A DNA stretch of 64,000 nt from Paraspadella gotoi (taxonomy: Eukaryota > Animalia > Chaetognatha), in contig CM119271.1 in NCBI GenBank assembly GCA_051294375.1, forward strand, positions 7,554,162 to 7,618,161, in the 5' to 3' direction. Shown piece by piece: positions 6,504 to 64,000 of this stretch (positions within the stretch are counted from its first letter, which is position 1; every line of letters starts with the position of its first letter). Below the pieces are notes generated by a model. That model was not told the origin of the DNA. It was given only the letters and a program-made list of their open reading frames with translations, and did no database searches. The translations under genes and the position numbers were made by a program.

Positions 6504-9295
6504 ATGTTCGTTCTTTTCGAAACTCCGGCGGGTTACGCCATTTTTAAGCTGCTCAAAGAGAAGAAGCTCCAGTCCATCGACAATCTCTTCCGAGAGTTCG
6601 AGAGCGCCGACAAAGCGTCGCAGTTGCTCAAGCTCAAATCCTTTGAAAAGTTCTCGGATACGACGGACGCGTTGGCCGCGGCCACCGCTGCCGTCGAGGG
6701 AAAAATGAGCAAAAACCTTAAAAAACTGTTGAAAAAAGTCTTCGCCTCTGAGGCGCACGAGAAACTGGCCGTGGCCGACGCCAAATTGGGGAACGCCATC
6801 AAGGAGAAGCTCGAGATCGACTGCGTGGCCAACTCCACGATTCAAGAGCTTATGAGATGCATTCGCGAGCAATCCGACAGGTACGTCGTCGTTGAAGATG
6901 TTTTGCCTTCTTAATCTTTCGCTTTTATTCTCACTTCTCAGTCTGTTGGAGGGACTTGACAAGAAGGAAGCGACGGCTTGCACCCTCGGCTTGGCGCACA
7001 GCCTCTCGCGGTACAAATTAAAATTTTCCCCGGACAAAGTGGACACTATGATCATCCAAGCCATCTCCCTGCTCGACGACCTCGACAAGGAACTCAACAA
7101 CTACGTGATGCGGCTCCGAGAGTGGTTCGGATGGCATTTTCCTGAAATGGGCAAGATCGTGACGGACAACATCGCCTTCGCAAAAGTAAAACACTCCTCG
7201 GACTGCTTGTCTCTTTCTTTGCTTGTAATGCGGAGTTTTTTTTGTTTTTTTTTGTCGCAATCGCTTGCTCTTATTTCATTCATTCAATTTATTTTATTTA
7301 TTTTATTTAATTTAGTTCATTCAATTTTTTTTTTAAATTCATTGCATTATTATTTATATTTATATATTTTTTTATTTTTATATATTAAGCTAAATTTGTT
7401 ATGTATAAAACTTAGTTTTCTCGTATCAAATATGATTTTTTGTTTGAGTATCGAAGTTTGTCATTGACAGGGGTCCAGAACTTTTTTTGCGATTGCGACG
7501 ATCCTTATAAGATTTTTATTACTCCCACCAAGGTTGTTCGCAAAATGGGCTTTCGGACTAACGCGGTCAAAGAGGATTTTTCGGACATTCTTCCCGAGGA
7601 AGTAGAGGCCGACCTGAAACGAGCCGCGGAAATCTCCATGGGAACGGAAATCGCCGATTTGGATCTCGTTAACATCAAATACCTTTGCGAGGAAATCGTG
7701 GAAATGTCGGATTACCGGTGCGACGATATAATTAATATCTTAAATAAAACATCGCCCAAAATTTTTTCTCCAATGACTACCGCTTGTTTGTTACGCCCCC
7801 CAAAAAAGGCTCAATTAGTTAATTTGGTCAAAGTAACAAGGGTTCACAAACTGGGTTCTAAACTACGTATAAAAAATTTATATCGCCACGACGTTCACAG
7901 TACGTATTTTATCCTTCAGGGGTCAATTGTACGACTACATCCAGAACCGAATGATGGCCATCGCGCCGAATCTTACGATCCTCGTTGGTGAACTCGTGGG
8001 CGCTCGCCTCATCTCTCACGCGGGATCGCTCATGAATCTCGCCAAACATCCCGCTTCCACGGTTCAGATTCTGGGCGCCGAGAAGGCGTTGTTCAGGTCG
8101 ACTCCCTTCTTCACTGAAGAATCTTCAGTGGAAAACGAAGTTCAGACTTTAATAAAAAAAAATTTAACCACGCAGGGCTCTCAAGACTCGCAAGGACACC
8201 CCCAAGTACGGGCTGATCTACCACGCCTCCCTCATCGGTCAAACCGGCGCAAAAAACAAAGGAAAAATGTCGAGGATGCTCGCGGCGAAATCTGCATTGG
8301 CGACCAGGGTCGACGCGCTGGGCGAAGAAACGAACACCACTCTCGGTGTGGAACACAGGTTAATGTCCGACCCAAGTGAAATTTGCGTTAAATATTTTTG
8401 ATTCGCAATATGCACGTAATATCTAAATATTCTTACCCTGTTTTCCAGAGCCAAACTAGAGAAGACTCTGCGATACCTGGAGGAGGGCGGAATGAAGAAA
8501 ATCAGCGGGACGGCGAAGGCGCAGGCCAAATTCGAAAAATACGAACACAAGAGCGAAGTGAGGACCTATCAGCCGGCCAGCGATTCCACCATTCCTGTCG
8601 TAAAAGCGGAATCCTCCGCGGAAGAGACGGCGAAAAAGAAGAAAAAAAGAAAGGTCGAGTGTCTTGTCCCAGTTCGATGCACCATTACTTAACGTTGAGA
8701 ACCAATTGTTCGAATTGATTCACTTCATCAGATCGAGGAGGTCGAGGAAAGCGAAAGTCCGAAAGAGAAACGGGTCAAACCCGACGAATCCGGTCTCGCC
8801 GACAGCGAGGGGCAAGAGGTCGAAGTCAAAAAGGAAAAGAAGAAAAAGAAGAAAAAGGTGGTTATATACAATATTATACAATACGTTGTATAGTTGAAAT
8901 GTTTCATTCTTACTATTTTTCGATATTTTGTAGCTGAAAGAAGAGGGCGACCAATCGACAGCGGGTCCGGAAGTTAAGACGGATGACGAAGACGCCCCTC
9001 CGACGGAGAAAAAGAAAAAGAAGAAGAAAAAGGTTTGTTCTATTTTCTGAAGAAAAAGTTTTTTTTCGATTTCATCCTGCATTTATTATGTCGCGGAATG
9101 ATTCTAATAAGGACGTATTCTCCTTCAGATGGTGGATTGAACTAATCGCTAAATACTTACTCTTTTCAGAGCGAAGCGGAGGCTGACGACAGTTTCGCAG
9201 CGGACTTGTCCTCGGCGGCCGATGCGAGTCAAGTGGAATCGGAAAAGAGCGAAAAGAAGAAGAAGAAAAAGAAGAAGGCGAAGGATGACGAGTGA
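6504..9295 (+). CDS. NOP58: Nucleolar protein 58 (box C/D snoRNP core), 9 exons
   Basis: [18 protein letters not shown]-terminus, [67 protein letters not shown] and a Lys/Glu-rich tail. Introns 6881-6941, 7186-7532, 7718-7919, 8097-8175, 8359-8448, 8654-8731, 8858-8933, 9033-9168 keep the frame. Confidence 0.95.
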
Positions 9296-9833
9296 AGCGC
9301 TAAAAAGGACTTTGAGAGATTCCCGCCTTCGATCCTCCTAGGAACGAAAACGGCGGGAACGCTCAGTTTTGTGTCCAATTGTTATCCTCTGTGGATAACG
9401 CGTTAATCATTTACGTTTCGTTTGATTAGCCTTTCCGTTACTGTTTTGTTCGTTCGTTCAATCAATCAATCGCTGTCAAGCAAGTCATTTCCCTTACCCC
9501 CCCCCTAAACATTCGTTGCGATTTTCTACACTACAATATTGTTGAATTTAATAGGTTATTTCGTGTTTAAAAACTTGATTTTTCGAAAAATATAATCAAA
9601 ACAAATCAAATTGAATAACTCATGGATACCCGACGTCGCGACGCGCGTCTGACTTCGAGCTTTTAATTTTCTCGTCGGATACTCGAAAACGACGATGATA
9701 GAAAGGACTAAACTCTAAGGCGAGCGCGCCGTAGGTTCGCGGCGGCGGCGGCTGCGCGCTTTTTTCCAGGTTATCATCTCCAGTCCCTCATCGCTCCTCG
9801 CCTCTTTCCTATTCTCTTTCTTATCCCCGTTCG

Positions 9834-11702
9834 ATGGACCGTGAACGTCCCTTCGAAGCGGCGCTGATGGAGGCCAAGTTTTTCATGGACGTCGACAAAC
9901 TCGCCAGCGGTGCTGTCGACGATGCAGAGTCCAAGCACGGCGGCGACGCCGTCTCTGGCGAATGCGACAGCGACGACGAGGATGAAGAGACAGAAACTAG
10001 CGTTCGGGACGAGGATGTCGACGGCGAGGATGGTATCCGTGAAAACTGCGAATCTGGCTTGGGTTCGACGCTCGAGACCGGCGGACTCCGCGCGAAAGGC
10101 GACCCGAAATTTCGGGCCGACGCGGGGTCGAGCGGTAGTCGAGGCGAATCCGGCCTTGTGTCTCGGACTCGTGACGAGACCGCCGTTTCACCTTTCATCT
10201 TCACGGGATTAGACGAAGTGGTGGTTGGGAATAAAGCGCCAGCGTCGGTTAAAAGCGACGGGTCGGAGAGCGAGGGATGGGAGTCGTGCGCGTTGGCGAA
10301 ACGGAAGAGGAAAAAGAAAAGGAAAAATGCGAAGAAGAAAGGAGTGGAGGCGAACGCTGAGAACGCGACATCGAATTTTTTGCTCGAAGACGAGCCTCTC
10401 GTCGATTCGACGGCGAAGCGGACCGAAGCGGGAGTGTCCTCACAACGGTCATCGGATGCTTGGAAAAAGGAAACCGTCGTTGAAATCTCCGCGCCTTTAA
10501 AATCCAAGATAGACTCGGACGGGAAACCTACAAAGAAGCGGACCAAGCGGTCGCAGTCCGAGTCGGAAAGCCTGTCAGAATCCTGCGAACCCTCCAAAAA
10601 TTCTCAGGACACGCCCTCGTCCGTAGAGAGCGGCTCCGGGATTAAAAGCATTTTGAAAAACCGGACTCGCAGCGTCTCCGGTGAATCTTTCTCCAGCGAC
10701 GTTTTCGACTCGTCGCTGGGTGAGCGGCGTTTCGGCGACTTGAGCGGGTCGTTGACATCGGTGACCCAGAGTCTCGAGTCCCTTTCCCTCGACTCGATTC
10801 CGGCGGCCTCGAGTTTTGCCGAGGGTCTCGACGTTTCTCTCTGTGGCCTCTGGAGCGCAGGTTCACGCAAATCGGTTCATTTCAGTTCGTTCGTGGACAG
10901 GAAAAGATTTAGGAGCGGAGCTCCGCCACAGAACGTCGGGAAGGGTCGCCGTAACTCTGGCTGTAAATCCGGGAAACAAAAGGTGAAGAACGAGTTGGGA
11001 AAGAAGCGACATCTGAGCGAGAGCGACGCAGCGCTCGTAGGATTCGGGCGGAAATTCGACGCTAAGGATATCGAGGAATCGGGAGCGTCGACGTCGGCTT
11101 CCAACGGGGCGTCGTCGGCGGAACTGGGCTCGGCTTCATCCGAGGAAGTTTTCGAGATGGAAGACGTTCACGACAATAACGACCTCGCGGAGAGCGCTTG
11201 CGTCGAGGAGATTAACTCCCGATCCCTGCTCACGGTCTTGGAAGAGGAAGAGGCGCGACCGACTCCACCGAAAAACGGTCAAGGGGATTCGCAAAAACCG
11301 AAGCAGAAGAAGAAAAAATCCAAGAGCAAGAGAGGCAAGAGAAACGATTTGTACGAGAGGATCGCCGGAAACGGAGGAGGCGAAGACGACGACGACACCG
11401 ACGTTTGCTCGGAGGGATGGTCGATGGTCACAAATCCTAAGCTTGGAAAGAAAAAGAAGAATGTTTTGAAGACGCTCAGCGATCTCACGTTGAGCGACGC
11501 CGACGAGGGCGACGTGGTGACGCCCTCGCCCGAGTCGTCGCTCAACGGCGCCTCCAGTATTAACAACAACCATGGCAACATCCACAACAACAACCTGGTC
11601 GACGAAAGCGGTTTCACTCTGCCCACTCGGGAGAGTGGTGCCGTCCGTGGAGATCCTTCATATCATCCCAGCGAAGGATCTCAAAAAATAAATGTGCCAT
11701 AA
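9834..11702 (+). CDS. Intronless 622-aa low-complexity protein with SILK and RVxF PP1-docking motifs, resembling the invertebrate kintoun C-terminal tail
   Basis: Long GC-rich ORF flanked by AT-rich DNA. Contains GIKSILKNRTRSVS, RKSVHFSSFVDRKRFRS, KRHLSESD and basic NLS-like clusters. Confidence 0.75.
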   Translation: MDRERPFEAALMEAKFFMDVDKLASGAVDDAESKHGGDAVSGECDSDDEDEETETSVRDEDVDGEDGIRENCESGLGSTLETGGLRAKGDPKFRADAGSSGSRGESGLVSRTRDETAVSPFIFTGLDEVVVGNKAPASVKSDGSESEGWESCALAKRKRKKKRKNAKKKGVEANAENATSNFLLEDEPLVDSTAKRTEAGVSSQRSSDAWKKETVVEISAPLKSKIDSDGKPTKKRTKRSQSESESLSESCEPSKNSQDTPSSVESGSGIKSILKNRTRSVSGESFSSDVFDSSLGERRFGDLSGSLTSVTQSLESLSLDSIPAASSFAEGLDVSLCGLWSAGSRKSVHFSSFVDRKRFRSGAPPQNVGKGRRNSGCKSGKQKVKNELGKKRHLSESDAALVGFGRKFDAKDIEESGASTSASNGASSAELGSASSEEVFEMEDVHDNNDLAESACVEEINSRSLLTVLEEEEARPTPPKNGQGDSQKPKQKKKKSKSKRGKRNDLYERIAGNGGGEDDDDTDVCSEGWSMVTNPKLGKKKKNVLKTLSDLTLSDADEGDVVTPSPESSLNGASSINNNHGNIHNNNLVDESGFTLPTRESGAVRGDPSYHPSEGSQKINVP

Positions 11703-12574: not shown

Positions 12575-15500
12575 ATGTCCAGACACGAGGGCGTCAGCTG
12601 TGATTCTTGCTTGAAAGGAAATTTTAGGTGAGTTTTCAAATTTAAGTAGTACGAAGGTGATGTGGATATTCATGGTTGTCCTGGTTTAAAGGGAAAATTC
12701 ACGTTTTTCGTATACGGCTTTCGTAAACAAATTTATAATATCCTTCTCTATTCTATTCTTATTTTAGGGGCAAACGATATAAATGCCTTGTTTGTTATGA
12801 CTATGATTTATGTGCTAGTTGTCATGATGCTGGAGCCAGTACTACTCGCCATTCTAACGATCATCCCATGCAAGTATGCTTTTGTCCTTTGAATCGCCCC
12901 CGCGGATGACTTCTCGCTTTTTTTAATCGGAATTTAACTTTCAACGCAGTGTATTTTGACGCGCTCCGATTATGATGTGTACTTTAGCGGAGAGAGCGTG
13001 GCGTTGGACTTGCCACAGGCTTTCACTTGTCCTCTCTGCGGCAGCCTTGGTTTCACCGAATCAACGCTTCGAGATCACGTATCGTCGGAGCATTCCGGTA
13101 GGACCGCTTAAATGATTAACTGATTTTTGTCACTACGGTGGGGAAACTCTCTAAATCTAAGTTGCGGATACCCTTTCGCCGACAGATCCGACGATCGAAG
13201 TTGTTTGTCCCATTTGTGCCTCACTTCCCGGTGGCGACCCGAATCACGTGACGGACGACATCGTGGGTCACCTCAATCTCGAACACCACGGCGGACAGCG
13301 ATCGGCCAATTCCGGTGCGAAGCATTTGTTGTATTGTTATAGTGTTGTATTAGATTTAATCTTCATATCTCGACTCGATCTACCTATTCTTAACTTCTCA
13401 GGCTCCGGTGGGGGCGGCGCCCAATCGATGGAGGCGGCGCTGGCCGGAGAAGAATCGAACGCCGGGGGGATTCGTCACGTACGCAGGATTCCGCACCCAG
13501 GTCGAAGCGTCTCTGGAGCGAGGGCCAGAAGGTACGTAGGAGATTGTTACTTTAAATCATAAAAGTATGTACTATGTAAGCTTGATTGCTTGTCTTATCT
13601 TGTTTCGTGTCATGTGCCATTCTGATTTCGTGTTGAATGTGGAATTGTCGATATAATTAATGATAATAACGATATGGAATTGGATATGGAAAAAACAAGT
13701 TTGAGCAAACAATGTCGGATCTGCCCACAATAATTATCATTAATTAATTGATAATTAAATAATCAATAAGGCAATTAATTAATTTAATCTCAAATGTTTG
13801 TTTTTAGGTCTTTTCGTCACTAACGACGACAAAAGCAATGACGATGAGAATAATGCCGATAACGATTGATTTAATTGATTGACTGATTATTTAATTATTG
13901 ATTAATTAATTGATTAATATATCTTGCATTTACATTTAATATTAAAAGAAAAAAAAGCATAATCAATTAGTGAAACAGGTTTTTTGTTTTTTTCATTTAA
14001 ACTCATTTCAACTCGGACGATTCCATCGAAACTTGATTTTCAGCTTAATCACACACTTTCCTACCCACATACAAAATTTTAGGTAAATTGCCCCATCCAC
14101 TCATGAGCAATTGGTGTTCAAATAGTGAAATATATATATATATATATTTTTTTTTAATTTAAACTCATTTCCACACCCACACAAAATCTCATTCCAATCC
14201 ATCCATCCTATCACGAGTAATTGGTGTTTTTTGCTAAGGTGGGACGGACGGACGGACGAACATCATTTTTTTTTGCATAATTTATCATAATTCGATGTTC
14301 TAACATAATACGACAAGATTGAGGGGGCGGACCGACGGACCGACAAAGTGAATTATTGAGTCGGGATCTGCTGATAAGTAGATCCGACTAAAAAAAAATT
14401 ATAAACCACTTATGGTGCTGATTTTGTTACGTTACTTACGTGGTCTTCTTAGAACCAACATGCATTTCTCGCCCGCCTCGGCCGGAGCCTCGGCGTTAGC
14501 GAGCTTGTCGCCCGGAAACGCCGCACGCGACGCTATGGATCCCATCGCTGAATTATTACAGCAGCTTTCCGGGGTCAGAAGGTATTGCAACATCTCAGTG
14601 ACAACTCTTCAACGAAATGCTTCTTTGGAAAAATGATAACGCTGTTTTTTCTTTCGTTCAGAAGTGCCGCTGCCCAGAGTACCTCATCTCAACTTCAGCA
14701 ACTTCAGATGCAGCTTCAGCTGGAGCGGCAACAGGCTCAAGTGGCTAGACAACAGCATCTCGAACGAGGATCGTCCAACGCCAATCGTAGAAGTAACGAA
14801 GATTGTTTGACTACCCCTTCGACGAACTTAAGAATGAAGCGACGGCCCTTGCACGCAGGTACGCCGACGAGCTCGGGACTTTCCGCAGTCGTTACGACCG
14901 GGGGCGTGTCTTCCTCGCCTCTGAATGCAGTAATCGGCGTCGCTTCGAATAATAATCAAAACAACGCCAGCGGCATCGCCTCCGGTATATTCAAACTTAT
15001 TCTTTATAACTGATAATCAGAAAAATACAAAATAAAAAGAAATTAATCATTTGATACGAGATGATACGAGAGAAGACTACATCAATGTTCAATGTCCATA
15101 TCATGCTGTGATTTTGTAAGGCCATAAAAGGGGAAACATTTCCCAAAACATGGACATTTTACTCTATTCAGGTCAATCTTCGGGAGGGTCTTCCCAAGGT
15201 TCCCAGTTTCTGCTCTCTGGAGTGGGATTGGAAAATCCCGTCGAAAACGAAGCGCTTTCACAGGTTAGCAATCCACAAAATTGGATCGTAGCAATGAACT
15301 TTTTAATCGCAGATATCTTGTATTTCCGTCTAATTTTATCCGATTATAGAATATAACTGCTATTTCTTGAGACTTTTTTTGCCCTAGTAGACATAGCTTG
15401 TCGTCTTCTGCCTAATAGGAATCAGAACGGTCGGAACGCAGTCAATTCGTGCAAGATCTTCTGCTATCCACGTTGTTGCTTGAAAAGATCGACATGAGCG

Positions 15501-16976
15501 AGGACTTTATGAAAATCTTGGAAGACGACACTTTTAGTCCAATCGGTAGGTTTGTTGCCGGAAGTTGCGAAGGTATTGTAATATTTAACATGTATCACTC
15601 TTTTAGACGGAGCAACGGGTACAAGCCGGCCGAAAACGTCCGGCAGAAGGGTATGGCCGTACTCTGAGCCCCATACCGGCTTTGTGGAAGATTCGATGAG
15701 GTCGTCGGATCGTCCTGGCCTAATCACAGGTAAGATTATTAATTTTATTAATATTAATAATTTAAAACTGTTTTAAAAAAAATGTTCATTTAAAATTGAC
15801 CATTATGCATATTATTCGAAGGTTCTTCTGACGATTCAAACGTCGGTTTGTCTAATATTCCGTGGTCCTCGGATGTTCATGGTAAAAAGAACAAAGACCA
15901 TACTGGTTTAAAAATTAACTAGTTATAAATTTAAAAAAAAAAAAATTTTTATCAGGGAGTAACAAATCCACCCGCATTCGCAGAAACGAGGAAAGCTCTC
16001 GAACTGCTTCTCAGCAGGTAAAATAAGGTTTAACGTCAAGAAGATGAGTTTTATTTGATGGACAATTTTATCTTCGAATACATGAATGAAGAAAACAAAG
16101 TTTTCGCGGAGCAACTCTTTAAGTCACTTGTTGGTCGGTCGGTCGGTTCCTCTTTAAAATGTTTAAAATGTTAAGACAAAAAAACCTCAAATCTCAGGGA
16201 CTTCTAGCGCCGCCTTCAGGAAATCCTAAAACTTTAAAAAATAAAAGATGGAATTACCATGCAGTGCGTGTCAAACTAAAAGAGTTATTGTAATCATGTC
16301 ACGAGAAATACACATGAAAATGAAGTCATTGCGGCGCAACACATTGGATGAACCGATCTTGTTATTCCTAAATAATGGAAATGTTTAGACTCATTTTATC
16401 GAGTTTTCTTCATAGAATAGCGCATCAATTATGATGAACGGAACAGAGACTATTAATCAACCATCGGGAAATTCTCATGTCAACGGACTGGGGTCGTTCC
16501 CTTTTCGCGCCACCAATTATCAGGTTCGTGTTCGTATCAAGTTTATGGCTGAATATACCGCCACAAGTTGACGGTTTAATTAACTATAATTAACTGTAAT
16601 TTTTTTTACATGTTGTTCGTTGAAAGTTGTGTTTTTAATATACAAAATAATATAAAAACCTTTCAAATAAATTACTCATTAGCCACTCGAGAACCTTTCG
16701 CTAAACGGTGTCGATGTGTCTCGAAACGGCGACGACATCCCCTCCGTGCCACCGCCGTCCTCCGACACATACCTCTCGCCGTTGCCGGACCCCGATATCG
16801 GCGTTCCCCCGGACGCAAGTCGTGAATCGAGTCCCGGACCGCCTGAAGATCCGGAACAACGGCGAGTGCCCTTTCCGCCCCATCCAGGGGGTGGCGGCAG
16901 GGGCGGTCGGAGGACTAACAAGGACGGTTTGGACGCCCACAGTCGTAGAAAAGAAAGGGAGCCGCCTCCACCGTGA
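12575..16976 (+). CDS. KCMF1: E3 ubiquitin ligase KCMF1 (ZZ + Di19 zinc fingers), about 15 exons
   Basis: Spliced [38 protein letters not shown]...HPMQCILTRSD, FTCPLCG, VVCPICASLPGGDPNHVTDD, MDPIAELLQQLSGVRR, QLQQLQMQLQLERQ, FVQDLLLSTLL and C-terminal EPPPP. Confidence 0.92.
13690..14398 (-). mobile_element. Non-autonomous Helentron-associated element (HINE / DINE-1-like) in KCMF1 intron 13532-14452
   Basis: On the minus strand: T-run, subTIR AGTCGGATCTAC with an adjacent inverted repeat, (GTCC/GTCG)n microsatellite, internal direct repeats, inverted subTIR GCAGATCCGAC, short hairpin GTTTG-CT-CAAAC and terminal CTTGTTTTT. Confidence 0.7.
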
Positions 16977-19402: not shown

Positions 19403-19410
19403 TGACGTCA
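19403..19410. promoter_or_regulatory. Perfect CRE palindrome TGACGTCA in the probable TOP1 promoter
   Basis: CCAATGACGTCACG lies about 400 nt upstream of the TOP1 start, at the end of a long (2.8 kb) intergenic gap. Confidence 0.35.
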
Positions 19411-19808
19411 CGCCTGCAACAAGATGTCCTCCACAAAGCACAAGGCGACAATCTTGAAAATTTTTAAAGAATACTTCTCTTGGTAATTGCATAAACAAAC
19501 GGATCGTTTTCTTTATACTATAAAAATCTATCCTCCTCTACTTTGCTTTGCATTCGTCCGTTTCATTTATATAATTGAACTGAAAACTGAACTGTGAAAA
19601 ATTGCAAAAACAAACACATGCGCTTGGCCATGAGCCAAGTTCGCTTTTATCCAAAAATTCGCGTGAAAGTTTAAAAATTAAAAAAAAAATTGAGTTCTTC
19701 TTTTTCCATGTCTTTCAACTCTCAAATTAAAGGCTTGAATTTTTTTACTGCAGATATGCTAGGTACAAATTAAAAAAAAAAACATAAACACCTTGAACAA
19801 ACACATGC

Positions 19809-41336: not shown

Positions 41337-41487
41337 AAACTTTTCAGATCGTTGTTGTTGTTGTTTTAGCAGCTTAATTATTTTTTTGTTCCAGCGTTGA
41401 CTTTTTGATAACAATTTATTCATTAATTTTTTTTTAACTCTTCCCCCTCAAGTTTAAATTTTTGAGAAAAAAGGAAAACCGACAAAA

Positions 41488-42048
<561 letters not shown>

Positions 42049-45150: not shown

Positions 45151-45251
45151 AGACCTTTAATTCGTTTTCGTTATTGCTGTTTGTTTTTCCGTCTATTAAT
45201 GTTTTTATTGAGTTGTCATATTTTAAAATTTTATTTATACACTTAGTAAAC

Positions 45252-50593: not shown

Positions 50594-51056
50594 ATGCCGA
50601 TGTTAACAGTAAAAACGAACGCATCGTTAAGCGACAACTCCCTCTTTGAGGCGCTGAACGATCTTGTGGCAAAGCATACGGGAAAACCCAAGTCTAAAAT
50701 TTGCGTCGTGATTGAAGACATGACAAGGATGGAGTTTGGGGGAACGTCGGATCTCTGTGCCATCGTTTGTTTAGGCAATTTTTTGTTTTATTTATTAGTC
50801 GAACATTTTCGTTATACGTAGGAAACTTTTTATGTTTATACTTTCCCAGACCTTTTGTAATGACATGAGGAAAGCTCAAGCGTTGCTTGTTTCTATCATA
50901 GAATCGATTGGTGGTGTCAATGGAATGCAGCTTTCAATCGCCCAAGATTTGATGAGTCTCTTAAAAAGTCACGACATCTCTCCAGATAAAACTTTTGTCA
51001 AATTCGTGGATCTCGCAGCCAAGGATGTCGGCCACGACATGAAAACATATGGCTAG
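50594..51056 (+). CDS. MIF: MIF / D-dopachrome tautomerase family protein, two exons
   Basis: N-terminal Met-Pro, KTN, TGKP, MEFGGTSDLCA, ESIGG, ISPDKTFVKFVDL...DVG. The intron junction is ambiguous (see findings). Confidence 0.8.
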
Positions 51057-51869: not shown

Positions 51870-54800
51870 ATGAGTCAAGGCAAGCGCGGCGGTAATAACG
51901 TCGGGTAAGTATCTTCATTAGTCTCAATATTTCCAACGCTTTCGCTTATTTTTCGACTTCCCTCGAACCAACAGCCTCGCGCAGTTCATGGGTAAATCAT
52001 GGACGGCTTGGCAAGACTACGCCGCCACCATCGAGTCCAAAGGTTAGATTTTTATTCTCTAGGAATTTCCTCTGCCTCCCGTGCGTCGTCATCCTCTCCC
52101 TTTATTCAACCCATCATCTCCCCGTTTCCTCTTTTAGCTTCCAAAAAGGAGGAAGAGGACTCGACGCCTTCGGCGAACCGTGGCAGCAGCGTAAAGCTTC
52201 GGGCGGACGACATGCCGCTTTTCGGATGCTGCCCGTCTCAAGACGAGTTCTACCTGGTCGTCTGCGAGCACTGCGACATCGTTGTCAAGCCCCAAGCGCT
52301 TCGCAGCCACATCGAGCTGCGGCACCCGCAGTCGCTGGACGCTCGGTGGTCGGACTCGCCGCCAGCGACGGCGGTCGGCCCCGGCGGCGACCGCGGCGTC
52401 GAAGCCGCTCGTAGTCGCCTTTCTGTCAACCCGTCGCCCACGCCGCCGGCCGAGTCAAACTCCTCGAGCTCTCTCAGCGCGGGCGGGCCTTCCTCGAGGA
52501 GCACGCCTTCGCCCAGCCGCTCGTCTTCCGCAGGTGAGTTATTTCGAAATGGCGAAAACAATTGTTAATTTATAATTTTTTAAATTAACGATGCGAGCTT
52601 CAAGATTAGTTTCATGTGACTGCGATTTAAAATACTTTTTTGATATTTAATTCTATATTTGACAAAAATATTAATTAAGATTTATATTTTTCAGGTTCTT
52701 CTCAAAAGAAACCGAAATCGAAATCAAGAGGAAAAGCGGGGAGACAGAAGAAAGTGGCTTTGCCTCTGGTCCTGGTGGATCGTCTCTCTACGGTTCCGTC
52801 GACGGCGACGGCCCCCAAAACCGTCGCCCTCTCTGGGCCCCGCGATGCGCAAGAGTCCATCGCTTTGGAGGGCCCGACAGCGACTTCCTCGTCCAAGTCT
52901 GGGGTCCCGTCGCCATCGTCGATGTCGGAGATTAAAATTGCTTTGGCCGACGCCGGAGTGGACGGCATGTCGAACGACAGACTCGGTGGTTGCGGCGCTC
53001 CCTTGGAAGTCGTCGCCAAATCCGGCGCCAAGGACCGTCGCGGCGACGCAGCTGAGGACAAGGTCCATAACGAGGCGTCGACGCAGAGCGCCGCCGCTGC
53101 CTCACTGAACAAACTGAACAACACAAAGACCCACCCACCGTCGACGACTTCTTTCCTCCCCCACTCCCTGAGCCGTCCGCCGGGATTGGACTCCCCGCCG
53201 GTCGCCACTCAGTTCTCTCCCTCGGCCTCCCCGCTTCCCGACCCTTCCACGCCCCCGCCGATCCACCCTCTTCCTTCCTCGAACCCGGACGACCTGTCTC
53301 CGCGGGATTCCCCGCTGCCCGACGACAAAACAGATTCTGGACCCGAGTCCCGATCCAACTCACGCCCGGCCTCTCGGTCGGGATCGAGGCCCGGATCGCG
53401 CGGGGGCGGATCGCGGACTGGTTCTCGGCCAGGTTCTCGCGGAGGATCTCGGCCGGGTTCCCGAGGAGGCTCGAGAGCCGGTTCAAGGACAGGCTCGCGG
53501 GCTGGTTCACGGTCCGGCTCCCGATCGGGATCTCGGGCAGGCTCACGCTCTGGCTCCCGAGCAGGCTCGAGATCAGGTTCTAGAGGCGGCTCAAGACCAA
53601 GTTCGCGTCCTCACCTGGAGATTGTTTCCGCATCTGGCGCAGAGAATGAAACTCGGGACCCTGTATACGACGAAGAGGACGCCACCTCAGCCATCGCCCT
53701 TTCGCCCGCCAGTGACCCGTCGCCTTCTGCTTCGACGGCACACCCGCCCGTGGTTCCCATGAAACCAACTTTTCTGCCCGTCATGAACGAAGTGAAGAAA
53801 AAGAACGTGAGCGTTGCGATGACGCTTGCTCAAATAAGCGGCGCTCTCAAATCCGCCTCCTCGTCTTCGCCCACGAAGAAACCGTCGCAGGGCGGACAAG
53901 TTTCGCCCGCCAAAACGGCAATCGCGCCAATTTCCGCCGCCAATTTGATCTCCACCGTGAAACGGAAAGACCGCGAAGCCGAAAGGGCCCGCGGAGCCGA
54001 CGCCCGCCGAGCGGTGACATTGACGCCGCAAAAGCGGATCGAGGCTTTATCCCTCTCAGCCCAAACCTCCATCATCGATCCCTTCGATAGCACGGGTCTC
54101 TCTTCCTTGGATCTTCCGCCTTTCTCCTCGCCACGGACGGACGCTGTTTCTATGGACATCGCTCGGCCTACTTCCAATGAGACCACGCCAACTCCAGTGA
54201 GGGAGACGGACACTTCGATCCAGAGCATCCTGAATGACCTTGCTTACCCGGACACGCTACTTATTTCTCCCACTGACGTTCTTCAAAGTCAAACCCCTGT
54301 CGCCCATCAGGGGAACAACACCGCTGCCCAGTGGAACTCATTTTCGCCATCTTCGTCCAGATTGGGGGATCAGCTTCACTCTGGCGTCGGCACGAACCAG
54401 GGTGTTTTTGGCCTCAGTGGTGACGTTTCCGACTCCTCACCTTCAAAACAGTCGCCAGTTGGGGACCTTTTCGCTCGACGGAAACCGATGCTGTGCAAGG
54501 ACCGCACCTACGACCCGGACCGGCACTGTGGCGTTGCCGTCGAGGGTAATGGTTTTTCACCGTGTACCCGATCGCTCACTTGCAAGTCGCACAACCTTTC
54601 CGCGCGTCGACAGGTCAAGGGTCGGAGCAAGACCTTTGACGTTCTTTTATCTGAACACAAAGCCGCTAAGGACGCAAAGTTGAGGGAGCAAGGAAAGCTT
54701 CCTCCGGCCAAACATTCAGCGGCGGCCCCTTCGCCGAGTTCCAAGTCGCCCTGTACTTCAAGCGCAGCGCCGTCATGGTCCTCGCCCCCGCCGCTCCCAG

Positions 54801-57590
54801 AAATCCCCGTCGATCGACCAGAAGTTGCTGTCTGCTCAACATCGCCTTCCACCGTAGTCCATTACCCCGGCAGCTCGATCTCCAACAACTTCGTCGTCCC
54901 GGCTCCCGCTAAACAAGCTCCTTCTTCATCCTCTCCTCGAACTACCTTTGTCCGTTCTCCCCCAAAGCCTCTACCGCGGTCTTTCCAACCTACTTTCCCT
55001 CCGACTGGGTCACGGAATCAAGCCTTCGTCCCGATCGTTCCGCGACCCTTCTACATTTCTCTCTCAGAGCTCGATCGCGGGGCCGGTGAAGGAGGAAACG
55101 CCGAGAGCCACCAACGCGGGGTCGCCGCTCCAAAGGGCGTGTGGCCGACTTCCGCGCTGCCGCCCCAACCAGTCGCCATGTGCTCTTTTGGCGCCCGGGC
55201 GACTCCGTCGGAACTTCCATCCAGTTGCGCCTCCGGTAGTTGCATGTTTCTTGGCCGTAAGATGGATCTCTTTCGCTCGGCCTTTAAGGTGGCCGTGGAT
55301 CGTCACCTCCACCCGCCGCCAATTAAGAAATCGTGCCTCAGCTCCTCCGCTGCCTCTTCCGCCGCAGCTTCTACCACTGGTTCCTTTTCGACTCCAACGG
55401 AAAATTTCAACCTCGACCCGAGCAGTTCTAACTGCTTAGCGGCCAAACCAGTCGATATTTCGACTTCCATTGGTGTTTCTACTTTCCTTCAGTCGGGTGC
55501 AAGAGAAAGCGGTGTTAGCGGCGGTGGCGACTGTAGCGTTGGTACCTTATTGCACGACGGGAGCTCTTCGGGACCGATGAATCCTGCTACCTTTGCTAAT
55601 TTTAAGACGCAGTTGATGTTGCAACAGCAGCAACAAACCGCCCATCAATCGCAGCTGTCGTCGGGTTCCATGATTCCCAAGGCGTCCCCTGTGAAACCGG
55701 ACGTCAATGCTAATCTAAATGGTGCTCCTGGCCGACTCTCCCGTGGAGGCAGCATCGGTGTCGTCGGCGGCACAGCCGGCAGCTCTGGAGGGTCCGGCGC
55801 CTCCGGCATGGTTGGAATGAACGTCGGCGTGTCGTCGTCGGCTCCATCGATTACTTCTCAACTTCACGCCGGACAAACTTTGACAAAATCCTCTTCGACC
55901 AGCGCCATTAAACGAAAGAGGAGCTCAAGTAGCTTATCGTGCAAAGGTGACGACACGGTCGAACAGGGCTCGTCGGCTCCGACCGGGATGCCTACCGGAT
56001 TGTCTTCTCCGTCGAAGGTCGGCGGTGCCCAAAATTCCACGCCCAACAATGCCAACTTCGCCAATGCCACTACATCAAAACTCTCCCTTCAACAGCAACA
56101 TACTCTCCAACAACCGCAGCGACAGTCTTCTCATTTCGGCACTACTCAGACGGCATTGACCCCTCAGCGATTGTGCGGAGAAAACAACGGGCAGCTCTCA
56201 ATATCAATTCCATTTACGGGGGTAACGATGGCATCCACTCAACAGGCCACCTTCAGGCAGTTACCCGACGTACATTTACGGAAGACCTCGACGACAGCTT
56301 TGACTGGAGGAATGAGTCAAGTTCTCATGTCTTCCGGCACGCAGCTTCAAGTTGGGCCTATCCAAGGGCAGACTAGGTGAGGTTTCGCCTGCAATGTGGG
56401 AGACACGCTATTTTATATCAATACTGCTGAAAAACATTTCTTTCTGGTAATTTGGATTTTTTTATAAAAAATACTGAGATTTTCTTTGTACCGGGGCAAA
56501 ATTGCTAAGAGAAAAAAAAGCAACGACGAAACAATTCAAATAACGTTGATGACCCAAATAAACTTTCTGGGTGAAGTCTAGTCTAATAAGATTATAAATA
56601 AATATTTTTATGACCCTCAGTGTTACCTCACGACTTCCTGTGACGACTGGAACGATTTACTTAAGCAGTGGAGGCGGTCTAACAGCAACGGGACTCAATA
56701 TGCAGACAATGACGGCCCTGTCACAACAACAACCACAACAGTCTCTTCGATTGGGTCGGACGACGACGACGACAACATCTCGATCAGGATTGATCCAAGC
56801 TCAAGTCGTCGTATCGGCGCCGGCGGCTTCACCGACCAAACTTCAAAGCGTCTCGGCCGTTAGCGCTCTTAACCGGGGCGCCGTTGGTGGCGGCGGTAAG
56901 ATGCCGGCTCGCAAAGATGTCTCCGGTTTGGCTCGGTCCTTCCAGAGCCGCTCTCTCGCCTCCGGCGGTCTTGGCCCGCGTCCGAGTCAATCAACCGCCC
57001 ACGCCGTCTCCTCCGGTCCGGCGATGGTCTCCGCAACCTTCGCTCCCGCCATTTCGCTATCTCAGGACGTTCAAACGCTTATTCAAAACGCGTCCCCGGA
57101 CTCGTCGTTGTCGTCGTCGTCTTCAACGTCGTCCGTCGACGCCGGGACGCCCCACCGAGTAGGCGTCTCCGCCGTCGGCTGCGCTACGAATCCGACGTCA
57201 TTCGCCGTTCAGGGCGCCGGCGCTTCTTCGTCCCTATCTAGTCAAAGAGACGCCCGACTCTCATCCCCTCATCATGGGATCGCCTCCTCTTCTGCCTCGT
57301 CCTCCTCCGCCTCCCAAGTGCTTTCCAATAACAACCCGACGCCGCCTCAACTGCATATACCCAACGGATTTATGACGTTACCCTCGAACCATTCTGCGGC
57401 CGCCCGCGCCGCCCTGTTGGGCAGCGGCGCACGCGCCGTCACCGGGATGGTCGTCGGCACTGGCGTTCCCGCGGGAGTATTAAGTCTGGGGCCCGGCGCC
57501 AAGACTGGGCAGGAAACAGTGACGCCGGCGACGCATTTGCTCGCCTCCTCGGGAAGTCACCCCGCTTCCAAGCATCTCTCATCTTCCTGA
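51870..57590 (+). CDS. ATXN7: Ataxin-7 family SAGA deubiquitinase-module subunit
   Basis: FMGKSWTAW, MPLFGCCPSQDEFYLVVCEHCDIVVKPQALRSHIELRH (N-terminal ZnF), SCA7 domain KDRTYDPDRHCGV...PCTRSLTCKSHNLSARRQVKGRSKTFDVLLSEHK, and PQPVAMCSFGAR. Introns about 51905-51974, 52043-52137, 52534-52694, 56377-56620. Confidence 0.85.
53348..53610 (+). repeat. Coding tetrapeptide repeat (S-R-x-G) x ~21 in the ataxin-7-like protein
   Basis: SRSGSRPGSRGGGSRTGSRPGSRGGSRPGSRGGSRAGSRTGSRAGSRSG..., with synonymous codons that vary between units. Confidence 0.9.
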
Positions 57591-58420: not shown

Positions 58421-61400
58421 ATGTCCGGGCCGCCACCCAAGGGTGCCGGAAAAACCGGCACCGCCCCCGTCACGGGCGGAGGCGTCGGTAAACCCTCACT
58501 AAACAAGTTCGCCCTCTTCCGGCTGATGACGGTCGAGAGAGCGACGCGGCAGACGCACGCGACGGTGAAACGGACCAAGATGGAAATAGAGAACAGAATG
58601 CGACGCCGCGGCGGAGGCGAAGGCTTGCACGACAAGGTGATTGGTGATCCGGTTGATTTTATTGAACGTTAACTACGAAAACTGACCAAGAATTTTATTT
58701 TCTTTTAATTTCCCTTACGTTTTAGACTACGTTCACAAATCGTATTTTATTATATTATGAAATTGGTACACAACCAATATGGTTCCGCAATACAATCCGT
58801 GTCTTTTAGACAACGAAATCTGAACTTCAATAATTACCATCTTTCTTGATCTCATGGTTAGAATAAGCTTTCTTTATTTAAAAAAACGGTAGGCTTATAG
58901 TTATCTTCTTCTTATGACATAGTACTTTCTAGGTAAATTTCTATGAGTTAAAAATACGGTAACTATGTTTTCTTCAATGAGTGTCAATCAAATCTTAATT
59001 TTAGAAATAAGTATGATTGAATTTTATGGTAAAGATAACTTTTAAAGATTGAATTCCTCATAAGAATCTTCACGTCTTTTACTTACACAAACTATTCAGG
59101 CAGGACGCCACATTATCTCATACAATGTTTTTCCCCTCATACCCTTTCTCTGATTCTTTTTCTTCATCTCTTTTCTTCTCTTTATTTGTATTTTTCTTTC
59201 CCTCTTTCCTCCCTACTTCTCACGCCGTCAATTACCATTTTTTTAGCCCTACCTTTTTTTTGCCACTATTCCACTTCTCCTCACCTTTTTCTCTTCTTCA
59301 TTCTTTCCCTTTCTTTTCCCCTCTTTTTCTTCCATTTTTCCCTATTTTCCTACCTTTTAATTTGTCTCACTATTTTTTTCGCCATTTGCCTTTGCCGCTC
59401 TTTCTTCTCTCCCGACCTCCTTTTCTTTGTTCTTCCTTTCGTTTTTCCTATCACTACATTTACTTTGAGCAAATAAAAATTTTTTTTCTTATGCGTTATA
59501 AAAAAAGAAATTAACGGTAATGAAGATTTTATTTCAATTTGTGTTGCCTAGCAGATTTAATAAATCGACAGATTTTGCGGAAAAATTTTCCGCAAAATCT
59601 GTCGATTCTCAGAAAAAACAAGTCCTGACGCTTTTCCATTGTGGTTAAAAGGATGCGGTTTTTTTTGTTTTAATAAACGTCAGTATGTACCTCATCCTTT
59701 AAAACTAATAAATGAGTTAAAAATACTCTCTTTATCAAAATAAATGCAAGTCACAAAAAGTCACAAATTAAAAGTTGTCTTTAAAAATTATTGTGGTAAA
59801 TGAAAAAGTTTTTTGATAATTTTGTAGGTGTTAAAAGCTTATTTAATAGGCTATATTTCTGTTAATTTCAACCAATTTGATTTATTTTTGTTTAACAATT
59901 ATGATAAAGACTGAAACTGCAACTTTTGACTTGTTAACTCTAAAATTAATTCATAGGCAAACTATAAATAATTTAAGCAATAAATAAATTTACACAGGGG
60001 TAAAGAAGATAAGGAAGAACGGATTTCCAAAGTAAAAAATTTTTCTCACTTTCCTGGCATTCAAATCATAGTCGTAAGTAAAAATGGACAAAAATGGACA
60101 TAATTTTTTTCCTAAAAGTTGCCAAAATGGTACTCTTTTATCATTAGAAATGGGTGGAGATGTTCCTAACCAATCCTTCGTTCGACCTAATTTGTGTTGT
60201 GGCACAAAGTTAATCAACATTGGTAAAAACAACTGAACCATAGTGGAAAAGTCGTTTTTTTCCTAAATGCAACGTTTGTATGGGGAACCATATAAATATT
60301 ATCCATTCATTTAATAAATAAACTATCTGCCCCTGACTTTGGACAGGCTTTGGTGGTTTAAGGCCTCCATCACTCTTACAAGCAATGCATATATTAATAA
60401 AATATCCAACTATTCCTTTTAGGAACTGGCTTTAGAAACATTCACGCTTAAGAACGAGATTCTCGCGGATTACAAGAAGACTCTCCAAAGATCCATAGAA
60501 CGTGCAACGGTAAGTTGCTCTTTTATTAATATTATCAAAACACTTTTTAGCAGACGAAATTTTCGAGTCTCCCACCTCTTCCAGGAATCCTCGTCGCGAG
60601 CGAAGAACGAATACCTCGACCGAAAATCCCGTCTAGAGTCGCTCAGGGAAGATCAGCAGAAGAAGGCTCTTCAGATGGAGGAAGAGAGACGGAAGCATCT
60701 GGAAAAGCGGGAGTTGTTCCTCAAAAGCAACGCCATTCTGCTCATGCGGAGGTTTCTGCTTTTAATTTGATAGCTTTTTATGAGTGTACCGAAAAATGTT
60801 TATCTAACCTTCGAACTCAGAAAGCAGCTAATTGCGGAGGTTTCCGCCATCTACCCTGTGGCTGAGCGGTCCGACCCGAAGACGAATCGCCGCGAATTTA
60901 CTATCGCCGGTTTCGTGGTCCCCAACGCGGACGAGCTCTCCTCGGTTCGCAGCGCCGACGAGGAGCGGGTAGCCACCGGCCTTGGTTACACCGCCCACAT
61001 GATCCTCATGATCTCGCAGTTTCTTGACATGCCGTTGCGATTCAAAATTCTGCACTGCGGTTCCAGGTATTTCAAATTTCTAAAAGGAGTCGTTTAATTT
61101 CTTTCTTTCATAATTTATTTACGTTCCCTTGTGACTTTTTCAGATCAAGAATTCACGATCACATCACGAAAGAGTTGTCAGATCGCGATCGAGATTTTCC
61201 CCTGCATTCCAAAGGAAAGGAAAAGTTTTTGTTCAACTACGGCGTTTTCTTGCTCAATAAAAACATCGCCCAACTCAGACATTATTGCGGCATGGCCACG
61301 CAGGTTTGATTAATTCGAAAGGAAACTTACAATTATACGATTATGGAGTATTTAATTAAAAACAAAGCAATCAATCTCATTAAATAATTTTATCGTAAAC

Positions 61401-62720
61401 GTAATTTTAATATATGTTAGTATATGATTCCATTTGAGCTTATCTGAGATCGTCAACGGTAAAAGCTCAAATCTGTTTTTAGGATCTCCGCAATACTTTG
61501 CCAAATTTACACTCGCTCCTGGAACAACGTCTCGGAGTTCAGTTGGGTGATCGCCTCCCCAACAGGACCGGAGCTGGTCTCCATTCGTTACCCTCTTCCT
61601 CCAACCAAATAACAAATTCTGAAGACATTGTTAAAGCTTTCCATGTCGATGAGGTGATCACATAAAAGACCCTTTTTCCCCCACAAAAAAAATTCACTCA
61701 ACATGAAACAGTTGAGTAATATAGTATTTTTTTCTCCAGTCCATGAAAAATGGTGGGAACGCGTCTAGTCAAGTGGAGCAACAGGCGACCTTTCAAACCA
61801 ACGGCGATCCAGGGAAAAATACCGCAAACGGTCAATGTGAGTGAGCCTTTAATAATAAAAATTTTGTTATATTACATCAACTACATTTGGATAAAAACAA
61901 TTTTTTCTTCTCTCTCCCGCCAGCTAACCACGACTCGTATGACGAGCGAGTTGAAGAAGAAGATGAAGATGACGAAAAGGAGAGCTGGTTGAAACGAAAT
62001 CCAGAGATGGCGTCGATCGTCGGCGAAGATGCTCCTCTTCGCAACCTCGTCGATTCCTCCGACAACTCTGCGGCAAACTCGGGCGACGAGGCGGAGACAG
62101 CGAATCTTTCGGCCAAGTCTTCCGAAGAAAAGTTTGATGAGACGGAGACTCTTTCTCGCGGAGTCGAGTCGCCATCGTCTCTCGTCGACGCAGAAGCAGA
62201 AACCGACGCCACGCCCACCGCCGAAAATCCGCCCGACTCTCATCTTCGTGAGACGCTAGTGCCAACTCCTCTTGCCGAAGAAGGCAACGACGTCGGTGGC
62301 GATTTTACCGCCAACGGCGCCGTCGATCCTTTGACCCCAGTGCCTGGGCCTGCGGAAGTCGCCGCTGACGACCAAATCGCCTTTAGTCCGAAAGGCGGCG
62401 TTCCAGCCGAGGCCAATGTACCCAAAGGCCTCCGCCTTTCCAATCACAAACGCAATACCGCCCATCGGCCGGCGGGGCTTCAACCGGGCCTCGCCGGTTC
62501 TAAACCCTTTGGCGGTGGTTTTCGCCAGGCAGCCAAAACCTCGTCCGCTTCGTCGTCGCGACCCATCGCTGAGATTTTCGCCAAGCAAAAGGCGCAGCAA
62601 GAAGGCGGAGCCGAGCGGCGCGTCGTGGACGGGGCTCGATCCGACTCGCGGACTGCGATACTGACCAACGCCAACTTCAATCTGGTCGACCGATCCAAAC
62701 GCGTCATCAGCGACGATTAA
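58421..62720 (+). CDS. UVRAG: UVRAG/Vps38 (PI3KC3 complex II subunit), apparently lacking the N-terminal C2 region, 8 exons
   Basis: Coiled coil ALFRLMTVERATRQTHATVKR, RRKQLIAEVSAIYPV, VATGLGYTAHMILMISQFLDMPLRF, GSRSRIHDHI, DFPLHSKGKEKFLFNYGVFLLNKNIAQLR, DLRNTLPNL. Confidence 0.85.
59125..59460 (+). repeat. Polypyrimidine low-complexity tract
   Basis: About 330 nt strongly dominated by T and C on the + strand. Confidence 0.8.
59563..59607. repeat. Perfect 22-bp inverted repeat with 1-nt spacer
   Basis: AATCGACAGATTTTGCGGAAAA-A-TTTTCCGCAAAATCTGTCGATT. Confidence 0.95.
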
Positions 62721-63223
62721 AAACCTCATTTTCTTTTATTGTTGCTAATTTTCTCGATCGTATTCAATCGATTCGAGAGCAAAAAAAAAAGGCAACTCTT
62801 TTACGACAAACGAACAAACACGCGATATTTTAAACCGCACTAAATGTACACTTTTCCTCTCGCCACGCTTCTCGGCAAATAATCGTTTTCGCCGGAAGAT
62901 TTTCTTTGTTCAATACTAAAATCATTCCAAGCTGAGTCGTTTCGTTTCGACGTCCGCTCGCCCTCCTCCGGCCCCCTCTCCCTTTAACTCCCATTGTTAT
63001 CCCGTTTTTACTCAAATTTCTAGTCACAAGCGGTTAAGCGCGATTACATTCTCGTTTGATTATCTCTTTTCTTTTCAAAATTTTTCGTAGGTATCTTTTG
63101 ACGACCAACTACAGCCGTTCGAACAAAATGAACATGAACGAAATTTTGCAACCAGTTCCGAGAATTACGGCTTTCAGCTACAAAGTCTGTCTGTGATAAT
63201 ATTTCAAGCTAAAATCTTTGACC

Positions 63224-64000
63224 ATGAATTTATCTAGGTAACGGAACTAATTAATTTCTTTTACTCTCGCAAGCTTTGGCTTCATTTTAGGTCTATAACT
63301 TAACAATTTCCTTTTCCTGCAGCGACCCGTCTCCCTCGGAGGATTTGGTTTGGGCCACGGCCTATTGCGGGCCGGTGGTTCCTCTGTGGAATGCGAGCTC
63401 CACGATGAGGTCGTCTTCGCCCAACCTGACTGACTGTTTTCAGAGAGCCGTTCTGGTCCCGATTCCTTGCCTCTTCTTTTTCCTCGTCCTTCCTTTCCAC
63501 GTGGTCGTCATCCGACGCAAAAATCGAGGCTACATACCCGTCGCTCTTCTCAACGCATTTAAAATGGTCGCCTTGGCATTGATGCTGCTGATGATACTGA
63601 TGGATTTTGGCATCTTGTTGTATCTACAGTACGGGCTGGATCTGTTTTTTCCTCCCGATCACTTCGCGACACCGGCGTATCTTTATCTCACGTTGTGCTT
63701 CGCGGGTGAGTCGGTGCATGGGTTATTTGGGCGATTTGATGACAACAACGACAACAACAACCTTAACGACTCTTGAACTTACCTAAATCGTGACCTACGA
63801 CTTAAGTTCAAAAAGTTAACCGACCACTTGATTCGTTTTGACTCTCATTGTTAATTGGGTTATGAGATTTACTAAAAGCAAGTTTTGTCTTTAATTAAAA
63901 AAAAATAATTATAAGCATTTATTAAAAATATCGAATTGCTCTAATTCTTAGGATGGTTGATGTACTACGAAAGACAGAAAGGATGTCAATCATCGGGATG
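63224..64000 (+). CDS. ABCC/MRP1-type ABC transporter, N-terminal TMD0 (3' partial)
   Basis: Spliced MNLSSDPSPSEDLVWATAYCG..LWN...PNLTDCFQRAVLVPIPCLFFF...RGYIP..LN..K...YERQKGCQSSG matches the recalled MRP1 TMD0 pattern (PDFTKCFQNTVL, ERRKGVQSSG). Confidence 0.85.

What the first reader, a model, noticed from the sequence alone, without database searches (positions are those of the whole stretch)
6504..64000. Sixteen consecutive co-oriented genes with very short spacers: candidate operon and SL trans-splicing system
Seen: every gene in the window is on the + strand (chance 2^-15 if orientation were random). Stop-to-ATG gaps are 101 nt (LRRCC1-PHF10), 151 (PINX1-RPS15A), 183 (RPS15A-LRRCC1), 375 (PHF10-KLHDC3), 480 (RALGAPA-beta-adaptin), 503 (UVRAG-ABCC) and about 540-900 for most others. 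Many starts are preceded by pyrimidine tract + AG acceptors with no obvious strong upstream donor (ttttccag 9769, ctttacag 26617, tttttcag 34757, cacttag 45246, ttttcgcag 50579, catccag 58359, tttcgtag 63090). Known: nematodes, tunicates, flatworms and chaetognaths process polycistronic housekeeping operons by SL trans-splicing. Inference: long operons, for example TOP1 to KLHDC3/MIF (8-9 genes, about 30 kb), possibly in a lineage where they are undescribed.
Basis: partly seen in the sequence, partly recalled or inferred. Interest (0 to 1): 0.8.

Follow-up and report, generated by a model that had tools for sequence, protein, structure and literature searches.

The report
Arrow-worm housekeeping gene operon cluster
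Fifteen mostly housekeeping genes lie head to tail on one strand in what a near-identical ribosomal protein marks as an arrow-worm genome, and spliced RNA assemblies run across three gene gaps, so the core is likely a multi-gene operon cut apart by spliced-leader trans-splicing, a mechanism already known in arrow worms.

Summary
The layout is real: 15 genes on + between 6504 and 64000 (the 16th lies upstream), with the stated gaps, except an omitted 2,832-nt gap before TOP1. RPS15A is 129/130 identical to Spadella cephaloptera, so this is a chaetognath, where SL trans-splicing and operons are published (P. gotoi: 18% of genes in operons, longest nine genes). In one RNA run, contigs run across AP-beta/PINX1, PINX1/RPS15A and LRRCC1/PHF10; another, by its length, should reach from RALGAPA into TOP1. 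Database relatives of RPS15A and MIF begin with the same 11-codon peptide, which matches a translated chaetognath leader. No leader was seen on this organism's own contigs, which cannot show 5' ends, and no promoter data were available. Best reading: one or several SL-resolved operons with a core from TOP1/RALGAPA to PHF10; unit borders are unknown. The scan noted two similar clusters elsewhere in this genome. It is a new member of a known kind; only a unit of 10 or more genes would be a record.

The parts
6504..9295 (+). NOP58, 9 exons, 573 aa
   Evidence: model; NOP5NT
9834..11702 (+). single-exon ORF, 622 aa, acidic/Lys/Ser-rich, family unknown
   Evidence: no Pfam hit (14), no Atlas hit for residues 230-440 (50)
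12575..16976 (+). KCMF1-like, 13 exons; 16683-16976 is modelled as its last exon
   Evidence: ZZ (70), zf-Di19 (14)
16977..19808 (.). 2,832-nt, 29% GC gap; likely promoter region that separates units (inferred)
19809..25846 (+). TOP1, 18 exons; likely first gene of the core unit
   Evidence: Topoisom_I (14)
26758..34317 (+). RALGAPA, 2496 aa, one modelled 69-nt in-frame intron; candidate acceptor AG at 26616
   Evidence: Rap_GAP, RALGAPB_N (14); homologs (24)
34798..39138 (+). AP-1/AP-2 beta adaptin, 17 exons; candidate trans-splice acceptor at 34757, no good upstream donor
   Evidence: 12 introns seen as RNA joints (13)
39139..39695 (+). 557-nt spacer crossed without a gap by a spliced contig (39063-39823)
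   Evidence: record 2
39696..41336 (+). PINX1-like G-patch gene, 4 exons; candidate acceptor at 39596
   Evidence: G-patch (14)
41337..41487 (+). 151-nt spacer crossed by a contig (41330-41594 seen); candidate acceptor at 41452
   Evidence: record 1
41488..42048 (+). RPS15A, 3 exons, 129/130 identical to Spadella cephaloptera
42232..45150 (+). LRRCC1-like (LRR plus coiled coil), single exon; candidate acceptor at 42206
45151..45251 (+). 101-nt spacer crossed by a contig (42204-45754); candidate acceptor at 45246
   Evidence: record 3, record 8
45252..48176 (+). PHF10-like, 8 exons
   Evidence: PHD (14)
48552..49868 (+). KLHDC3, single exon
50594..51056 (+). MIF-family gene, 2 exons; candidate acceptor at 50579
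   Evidence: intron seen as joint (13)
51870..57590 (+). ATXN7-like, 5 coding exons; candidate cis-spliced 5'UTR intron 51711-51799
   Evidence: SCA7 (14)
58421..62720 (+). UVRAG-like, 8 exons; candidate acceptor at 58359
   Evidence: ATG14 below cut-off (14)
63224..64000 (+). 5' end of an ABCC-like transporter, runs off the window; candidate acceptor at 63090
   Evidence: TMD0_ABC weak hit E 0.005 (70)

Best explanation
This is a tightly packed, co-oriented run of chaetognath housekeeping genes whose core (TOP1/RALGAPA through PHF10, perhaps to MIF) is likely transcribed as a polycistronic precursor and likely cut into single mRNAs by spliced-leader trans-splicing. Predicted steps: RNA polymerase II starts in a long AT-rich gap (most likely the 2.8 kb before TOP1) and runs through the short spacers; introns are cis-spliced (shown); an SL snRNP made elsewhere adds a capped 33-36-nt leader at the unpaired AG before each downstream ATG (inferred); each upstream 3' end forms at or just before that AG, as in the Spadella RPS14-PCNA operon (inferred). 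The 15 genes probably form two or three units, not one.
For: Lineage: RPS15A 129/130 to Spadella against 114/130 or less for named non-chaetognaths; 99-supported clade. Phylum-wide mechanism: SL on about half of genes and 18% of genes in operons in P. gotoi; Spadella operon with 3 nt between poly(A) site and acceptor. RNA: 14 of 15 displayed joints match modelled introns in length, so run X1 holds spliced RNA. Contigs cross 3 spacers without gaps: AP-beta/PINX1, PINX1/RPS15A, LRRCC1/PHF10. Leader: 10 stored RPS15A relatives and 1 MIF relative start with the same 11-codon peptide (10-11 of 11 identical) followed by different gene-specific sequence. By hand translation it matches form 3 of the published leaders at 8 of 11; a further record matches SL1. 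The peptides are not coded upstream of either gene in the window. Acceptor-like AGs precede 15 of 15 starts, and 5 of the 6 without a good upstream donor lie in the RALGAPA-PHF10 core.
Against: No leader appears among the 5 loose ends over RPS15A, LRRCC1 and PHF10 starts or the 6 of 48 shown; contigs drop such variants, so this is inconclusive. A contig across two genes does not prove one transcript: overlapping UTRs or slight read-through give the same picture, and depth is one mean per contig. The leader evidence is from relatives, the RPS15A records probably from very few species, and only 1 of 21 MIF hits shows it. Nine of 15 spacers hold a usable donor. Only 3 of 14 stop-to-ATG gaps are under the 250-nt cut-off used for P. 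gotoi (UTRs not subtracted).
Confidence: 0.72

Rival explanations
1. The genes are trans-spliced but mostly monocistronic: each has its own small promoter in the upstream spacer or 3' UTR, and contigs bridge only because UTRs overlap or read through.
For: P. gotoi has more trans-spliced non-operon genes than operon genes (5,586 vs 2,643 in a figure legend). Spacers before ORF9834, KCMF1 and ABCC have CpG-rich patches (16, 11, 12 per 100 nt; maximum 10 in 18 long-intron blocks). ATXN7 has a strong donor/acceptor pair in its 5' region. This reading is likely true for some flanking genes.
Against: Spacers of 101 and 151 nt at 24-27% GC leave little room for a 3' UTR plus a promoter, lack donors and are crossed by contigs.
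Confidence: 0.16
2. All 15 genes (57 kb or more) form a single transcription unit.
For: Unbroken co-orientation; acceptor-like AG before every start.
Against: 2,832-nt gap before TOP1; CpG-rich patches and a likely 5'UTR intron on the flanks; junctions left of TOP1 and right of ATXN7 not tested.
Confidence: 0.08
3. Ordinary dense genes without trans-splicing; the strand run is chance.
For: 0.34 runs of 16 are expected by chance in a 22,072-gene genome; no leader seen in run X1.
Against: Chaetognath lineage with widespread trans-splicing; leader-coded peptides on relatives of RPS15A and MIF; spacers down to 101 nt.
Confidence: 0.04

Closest known systems
Paraspadella gotoi operons (PMC12460157; passages, sections 5 and 10, and 3 supplementary PDFs searched)
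   Same: Same phylum; co-oriented, closely spaced housekeeping genes including a ribosomal protein; developmental/signalling genes said to be under-represented, like the Ig/FN3 receptor gene set apart here by 2.2 kb.
   Different: The published longest operon has nine genes (ribosomal, ubiquitin, proteasome); this run has other genes and 15 members, though one unit is not shown. The operon table (xlsx) could not be read, so this locus may already be listed there if the window is that species, which I did not establish.
Spadella cephaloptera RPS14-PCNA operon and SL forms 1-4 (PMC2481426, section 12 and passages; PMC2566580, passages)
   Same: Same leader family (by relatives' peptides); ribosomal-protein gene next to an unrelated gene; very short spacers.
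   Different: Two genes there, at least seven in the proposed core here; leader and poly(A) sites were mapped there and not here.
Ciona intestinalis and Oikopleura dioica operons (PMC7986045, passages)
   Same: No operon-specific leader needed; short or absent intercistronic DNA.
   Different: Ciona operons are mostly two-gene, up to seven predicted; unrelated leader and lineage.
Caenorhabditis elegans SL2 operons (PMC2776167, PMC7986045, passages)
   Same: Functionally unrelated housekeeping genes on one precursor.
   Different: Nematodes use a dedicated SL2 for downstream genes; chaetognaths are reported to have no operon-specific leader.

Membership tests
Chaetognath SL-resolved operon | Organism is a chaetognath | tested here: met
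   RPS15A 129/130 to S. cephaloptera, clade support 99; one gene with one named chaetognath record
Chaetognath SL-resolved operon | Two or more co-oriented genes under 250 bp apart | tested here: met
   PINX1-RPS15A-LRRCC1-PHF10: 151, 183, 101 nt stop-to-ATG; other gaps need UTR ends
Chaetognath SL-resolved operon | SL on mRNAs of these genes in this organism | tested here: inconclusive
   No leader among shown loose ends; contigs only
Chaetognath SL-resolved operon | SL on homologous mRNAs in relatives | tested here: met
   Shared leader-coded peptide on RPS15A and MIF relatives; 2 of the 4 genes searched
Chaetognath SL-resolved operon | Leader absent from the genomic DNA upstream of the gene | tested here: met
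   Peptides not coded upstream of RPS15A or MIF; one chance-level head-motif hit
Chaetognath SL-resolved operon | Polycistronic precursor | tested here: inconclusive
   Contigs cross 3 spacers, but contigs are not single molecules
Chaetognath SL-resolved operon | One promoter for the unit | not testable with these tools
   Needs CAGE, ATAC or H3K4me3; CpG and k-mer proxies gave no shared motif
Chaetognath SL-resolved operon | SL RNA genes elsewhere in the genome (5S cluster in Spadella) | not testable with these tools
   No whole genome held; no Rfam hit in the window
Nematode SL2-type operon | Dedicated leader for downstream genes | not tested
   Reported absent in chaetognaths; organism is not a nematode

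The most novel reading that the evidence does not exclude
TOP1 through ABCC and beyond (12 or more genes, over 44 kb), or the whole run, is one Pol II transcription unit, longer than the nine-gene maximum published for chaetognaths. It would show that a distance cut-off of 250 bp splits real operons, and that ancient neighbours (KLHDC3 and RALGAPA, eight locus tags apart in a bivalve) were compacted into it.
Probability: 0.22. Interest if true: 0.55.

Novelty: new member of a known kind. Interest (0 to 1): 0.3.

Why it matters
The mechanism is published for this phylum, so the locus mainly adds an example. It would matter more if ten or more genes share one promoter. That would beat the reported chaetognath maximum and give a defined locus for asking how 3' ends form beside a trans-splice site and how genes with very different mRNA needs (RPS15A, RALGAPA) are dosed from one precursor.

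Tried and rejected
No whole genome held: no strand-run statistics and no SL RNA search. No run on record as RNA or kept as raw reads; X1 is a guess that its spliced joints support.

Contig ends, not counted as evidence because contigs cannot show starts or ends and come from one study: the RALGAPA contig stops at 34755 and the AP-beta contig begins at 34758, around AG 34756-57; the RPS15A contig stops at 42207 and the LRRCC1 contig begins at 42204, around AG 42205-06. Depth arithmetic leaves no further contig in those bins, and both AGs are the matrix's picks near the ATG. This fits abutting mRNAs. The KLHDC3 contig begins at 48449, at neither candidate AG, and about 48208-48448 appears uncovered (hand arithmetic).

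Metagenome scan with the KLHDC3 alignment: 9 loci, 8 at 29-52% identity and one short exon at 77%; none was taken as a close relative, so no synteny test in chaetognaths. KLHDC3 tree (quick, unfinished careful search) grouped the window and 8 unnamed relatives beside deuterostomes; it held no named chaetognath and was not used for lineage. RALGAPA hits gave only generic bilaterians.

A[AT]TAAA in 13 short spacers: 15 observed, 16.7 expected, so no excess of canonical poly(A) signals; weak, not used. No shared 7-8-mer in more than 6 of 15 spacers. Rfam: 0 hits. Atlas: no hit for ORF9834. P. gotoi leader sequences were not in the 3 readable supplements. Gastrotrich, sponge, nematode and flatworm origins were considered and dropped.

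Full report
Observation. Coordinate-based models with open frames were built for 14 complete genes; ABCC is cut by the window end. Pfam supports the identities to different degrees: clear for NOP58, KCMF1, TOP1, RALGAPA, AP-beta, PINX1 (G-patch), RPS15A, LRRCC1 (LRR), PHF10 (PHD), KLHDC3, MIF and ATXN7; below cut-off for UVRAG and ABCC; none for ORF9834. All are on +. None of 119 minus-strand ORFs of 75 aa or more has a Pfam hit. There are 15 genes in the stated range; the sixteenth is an Ig/FN3 receptor gene ending at 4291. The 78 modelled introns have a median of 86 nt. Gaps: 2212 | 538, 872, 2832, 911, 480, 557, 151, 183, 101, 375, 725, 813, 830, 503. The strand run alone is weak evidence: 0.34 runs of 16 are expected at random in 22,072 genes (gene count borrowed from P. 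gotoi).

Splice signals. A matrix trained on the window's introns scores the best AG within 150 nt of each ATG at or above the lower quartile of true acceptors in 15 of 15 genes, against 34 of 57 control windows (p 0.0025) and 6 of 11 post-stop windows (p 0.043). Good upstream donors are missing for RALGAPA, AP-beta, PINX1, RPS15A, PHF10 and ABCC and present for the other nine. For LRRCC1 the donor at 42065 is read through unspliced by a contig. ATXN7 has a strong pair, 51711-51799, that looks like an ordinary 5'UTR intron. The unpaired acceptors thus cluster in the RALGAPA-PHF10 core.

Lineage. KLHDC3 and RALGAPA gave unnamed close relatives or generic bilaterians. Earlier scan notes called this genome an arrow worm, so I tested it with RPS15A. 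The top hits lead to a cluster that holds the Spadella cephaloptera protein. The window's protein matches it at 129 of 130 residues, against 114 or fewer for named non-chaetognaths, in a 7-row clade with support 99 (FastTree, 33 rows chosen from the hits). The species was not determined.

RNA. One run, X1, holds 0.76 of the sampled words and is kept as contigs only. It was laid on 33600-53500 and 41330-45420; the first table was heavily cut (9 of 152 pieces, 15 of 36 joints, 6 of 48 loose ends; the second showed 8 of 21 pieces). Fourteen of the 15 joints shown match modelled introns in length; the other joins two repeat-rich places. One spliced contig holds AP-beta exons and runs ungapped over 39063-39823 into PINX1. 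A second runs 42204-45754 from LRRCC1 into PHF10. A third runs 41330-41594 across the PINX1-RPS15A spacer, with only a few PINX1 coding letters. Of the 7 junctions inside the laid stretch, 3 are bridged, 2 show contigs ending and beginning side by side, and 2 or more cannot be judged; what was seen at contig ends is listed under Tried and rejected and not counted. No leader is among the loose ends shown. Contigs drop such branches, so this neither supports nor refutes.

Leader in relatives. Ten stored RPS15A relatives begin, after MG, with EAKNIYFTCLK or a one-residue variant. A MIF relative (P0393, 48% identical over 61 aa) begins EAKNTYFTCLK and then continues differently (all 410 stored proteins scanned). 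By hand translation of Table 3 in PMC2481426, form 3.2 gives EANFYYFTCLK (8 of 11), and SL1 gives NSFICLIK, as in P0388. The MG start is probably a cDNA adapter (recalled), which would put the leader at the 5' end. One motif at the 5' end of unrelated genes is the standard sign of trans-splicing (PMC2566580, passages). These peptides are not coded upstream of RPS15A or MIF in the window. Limits: 1 of 21 MIF hits shows it, orthology of P0393 was not tested, the RPS15A records share their UTR and may be one species, and KLHDC3 and RALGAPA hits carry no such extension.

Mechanism. Shown: co-orientation, spacing, cis-splicing, contigs across three spacers, chaetognath identity, leader-coded peptides in relatives. 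Inferred: a shared promoter, a polycistronic precursor, SL addition at the listed AGs, and 3' ends formed next to them. The long gap before TOP1, CpG-rich patches before ORF9834, KCMF1 and ABCC and the ATXN7 donor suggest several units: NOP58-KCMF1, TOP1-PHF10(-MIF), ATXN7-ABCC. I put 0.72 on an SL-resolved operon core, 0.16 on mostly monocistronic trans-spliced genes, 0.08 on one 15-gene unit and 0.04 on no trans-splicing.

Comparison and novelty. PMC12460157 (passages, sections 5 and 10) reports 10,197 trans-spliced genes, 18% of genes in operons, a 250-bp rule and a nine-gene maximum in P. gotoi. PMC2481426 (section 12 and passages) reports the leaders and the RPS14-PCNA operon. PMC7986045 and PMC2776167 were seen as passages. 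Six searches found no other chaetognath operon paper and no description of this cluster, but the P. gotoi operon spreadsheet was too large to read, so it may be listed there. The scan itself noted a nine-gene translation cluster and a 14-gene co-oriented cluster elsewhere in this genome (unchecked AI notes). Verdict: a real feature, a new member of a known kind, interest 0.3. A proven unit of 10 or more genes (probability about 0.22) would deserve about 0.55.

Noticed in passing
window 26637-26670, minus strand: A stretch resembling published chaetognath SL1 lies antisense just downstream of the candidate RALGAPA acceptor. The tail matches 14 of 16 (12 of 100 shuffles do as well); by eye the head also aligns with two 1-nt gaps. 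No GT donor follows and there is no stable fold. Chance, a decayed copy, or an element that could pair with an added leader.
   Followed up: partly
window 26758-34317 and 48552-49868: KLHDC3 and RALGAPA homologs sit on contigs of identical length in 12 of 19 named species present in both hit lists, including 4.8-Mb (Lottia) and 3.5-Mb (Branchiostoma belcheri) scaffolds. Their Sinanodonta locus tags are 8 apart, Patella's 654 apart. The 7 that differ are six fragmented assemblies and a fish (counted by hand). This suggests old linkage.
   Followed up: partly
window 48552-49868: KLHDC3 is intronless here, but fragments in its relatives' clusters end or begin at one shared point after the motif VHVFDT, as for an intron: likely recent intron loss. 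LRRCC1 and ORF9834 are also single-exon.
   Followed up: partly
window 26758-34317 and 1-4291: RALGAPA (2496 codons, one modelled intron) and the Ig/FN3 gene have GC3 of 0.28-0.32, while the other 13 complete genes have 0.53-0.70.
   Followed up: no
window 9834-11702: Unassigned 622-aa ORF with SILK-like and RVxF-like motifs near residues 270-350. It recalls the C-terminal half of kintoun/DNAAF2 or a PP1 partner (recalled, not confirmed).
   Followed up: partly
window 26618-26716: Upstream ATGs with short ORFs lie between the candidate acceptor and the RALGAPA start; an out-of-frame ATG at 42207 also follows the LRRCC1 acceptor directly.
   Followed up: no
window 23332-24883: The long TOP1 intron appears by eye to hold a large inverted repeat (about 23540-24000 against 24270-24730), possibly a MITE-like element.
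   Followed up: no
window 3590-3800: GC-richer segment with inverted-repeat look in the Ig/FN3 gene's last modelled intron, possibly a mobile element.
   Followed up: no
L005:1-10, L001:1-30, L002:1-35: KLHDC3 contigs of other animals begin with leader-like sequence. L005's start resembles the nematode SL1 tail (recalled); L001 and L002 resemble each other.
   Followed up: no
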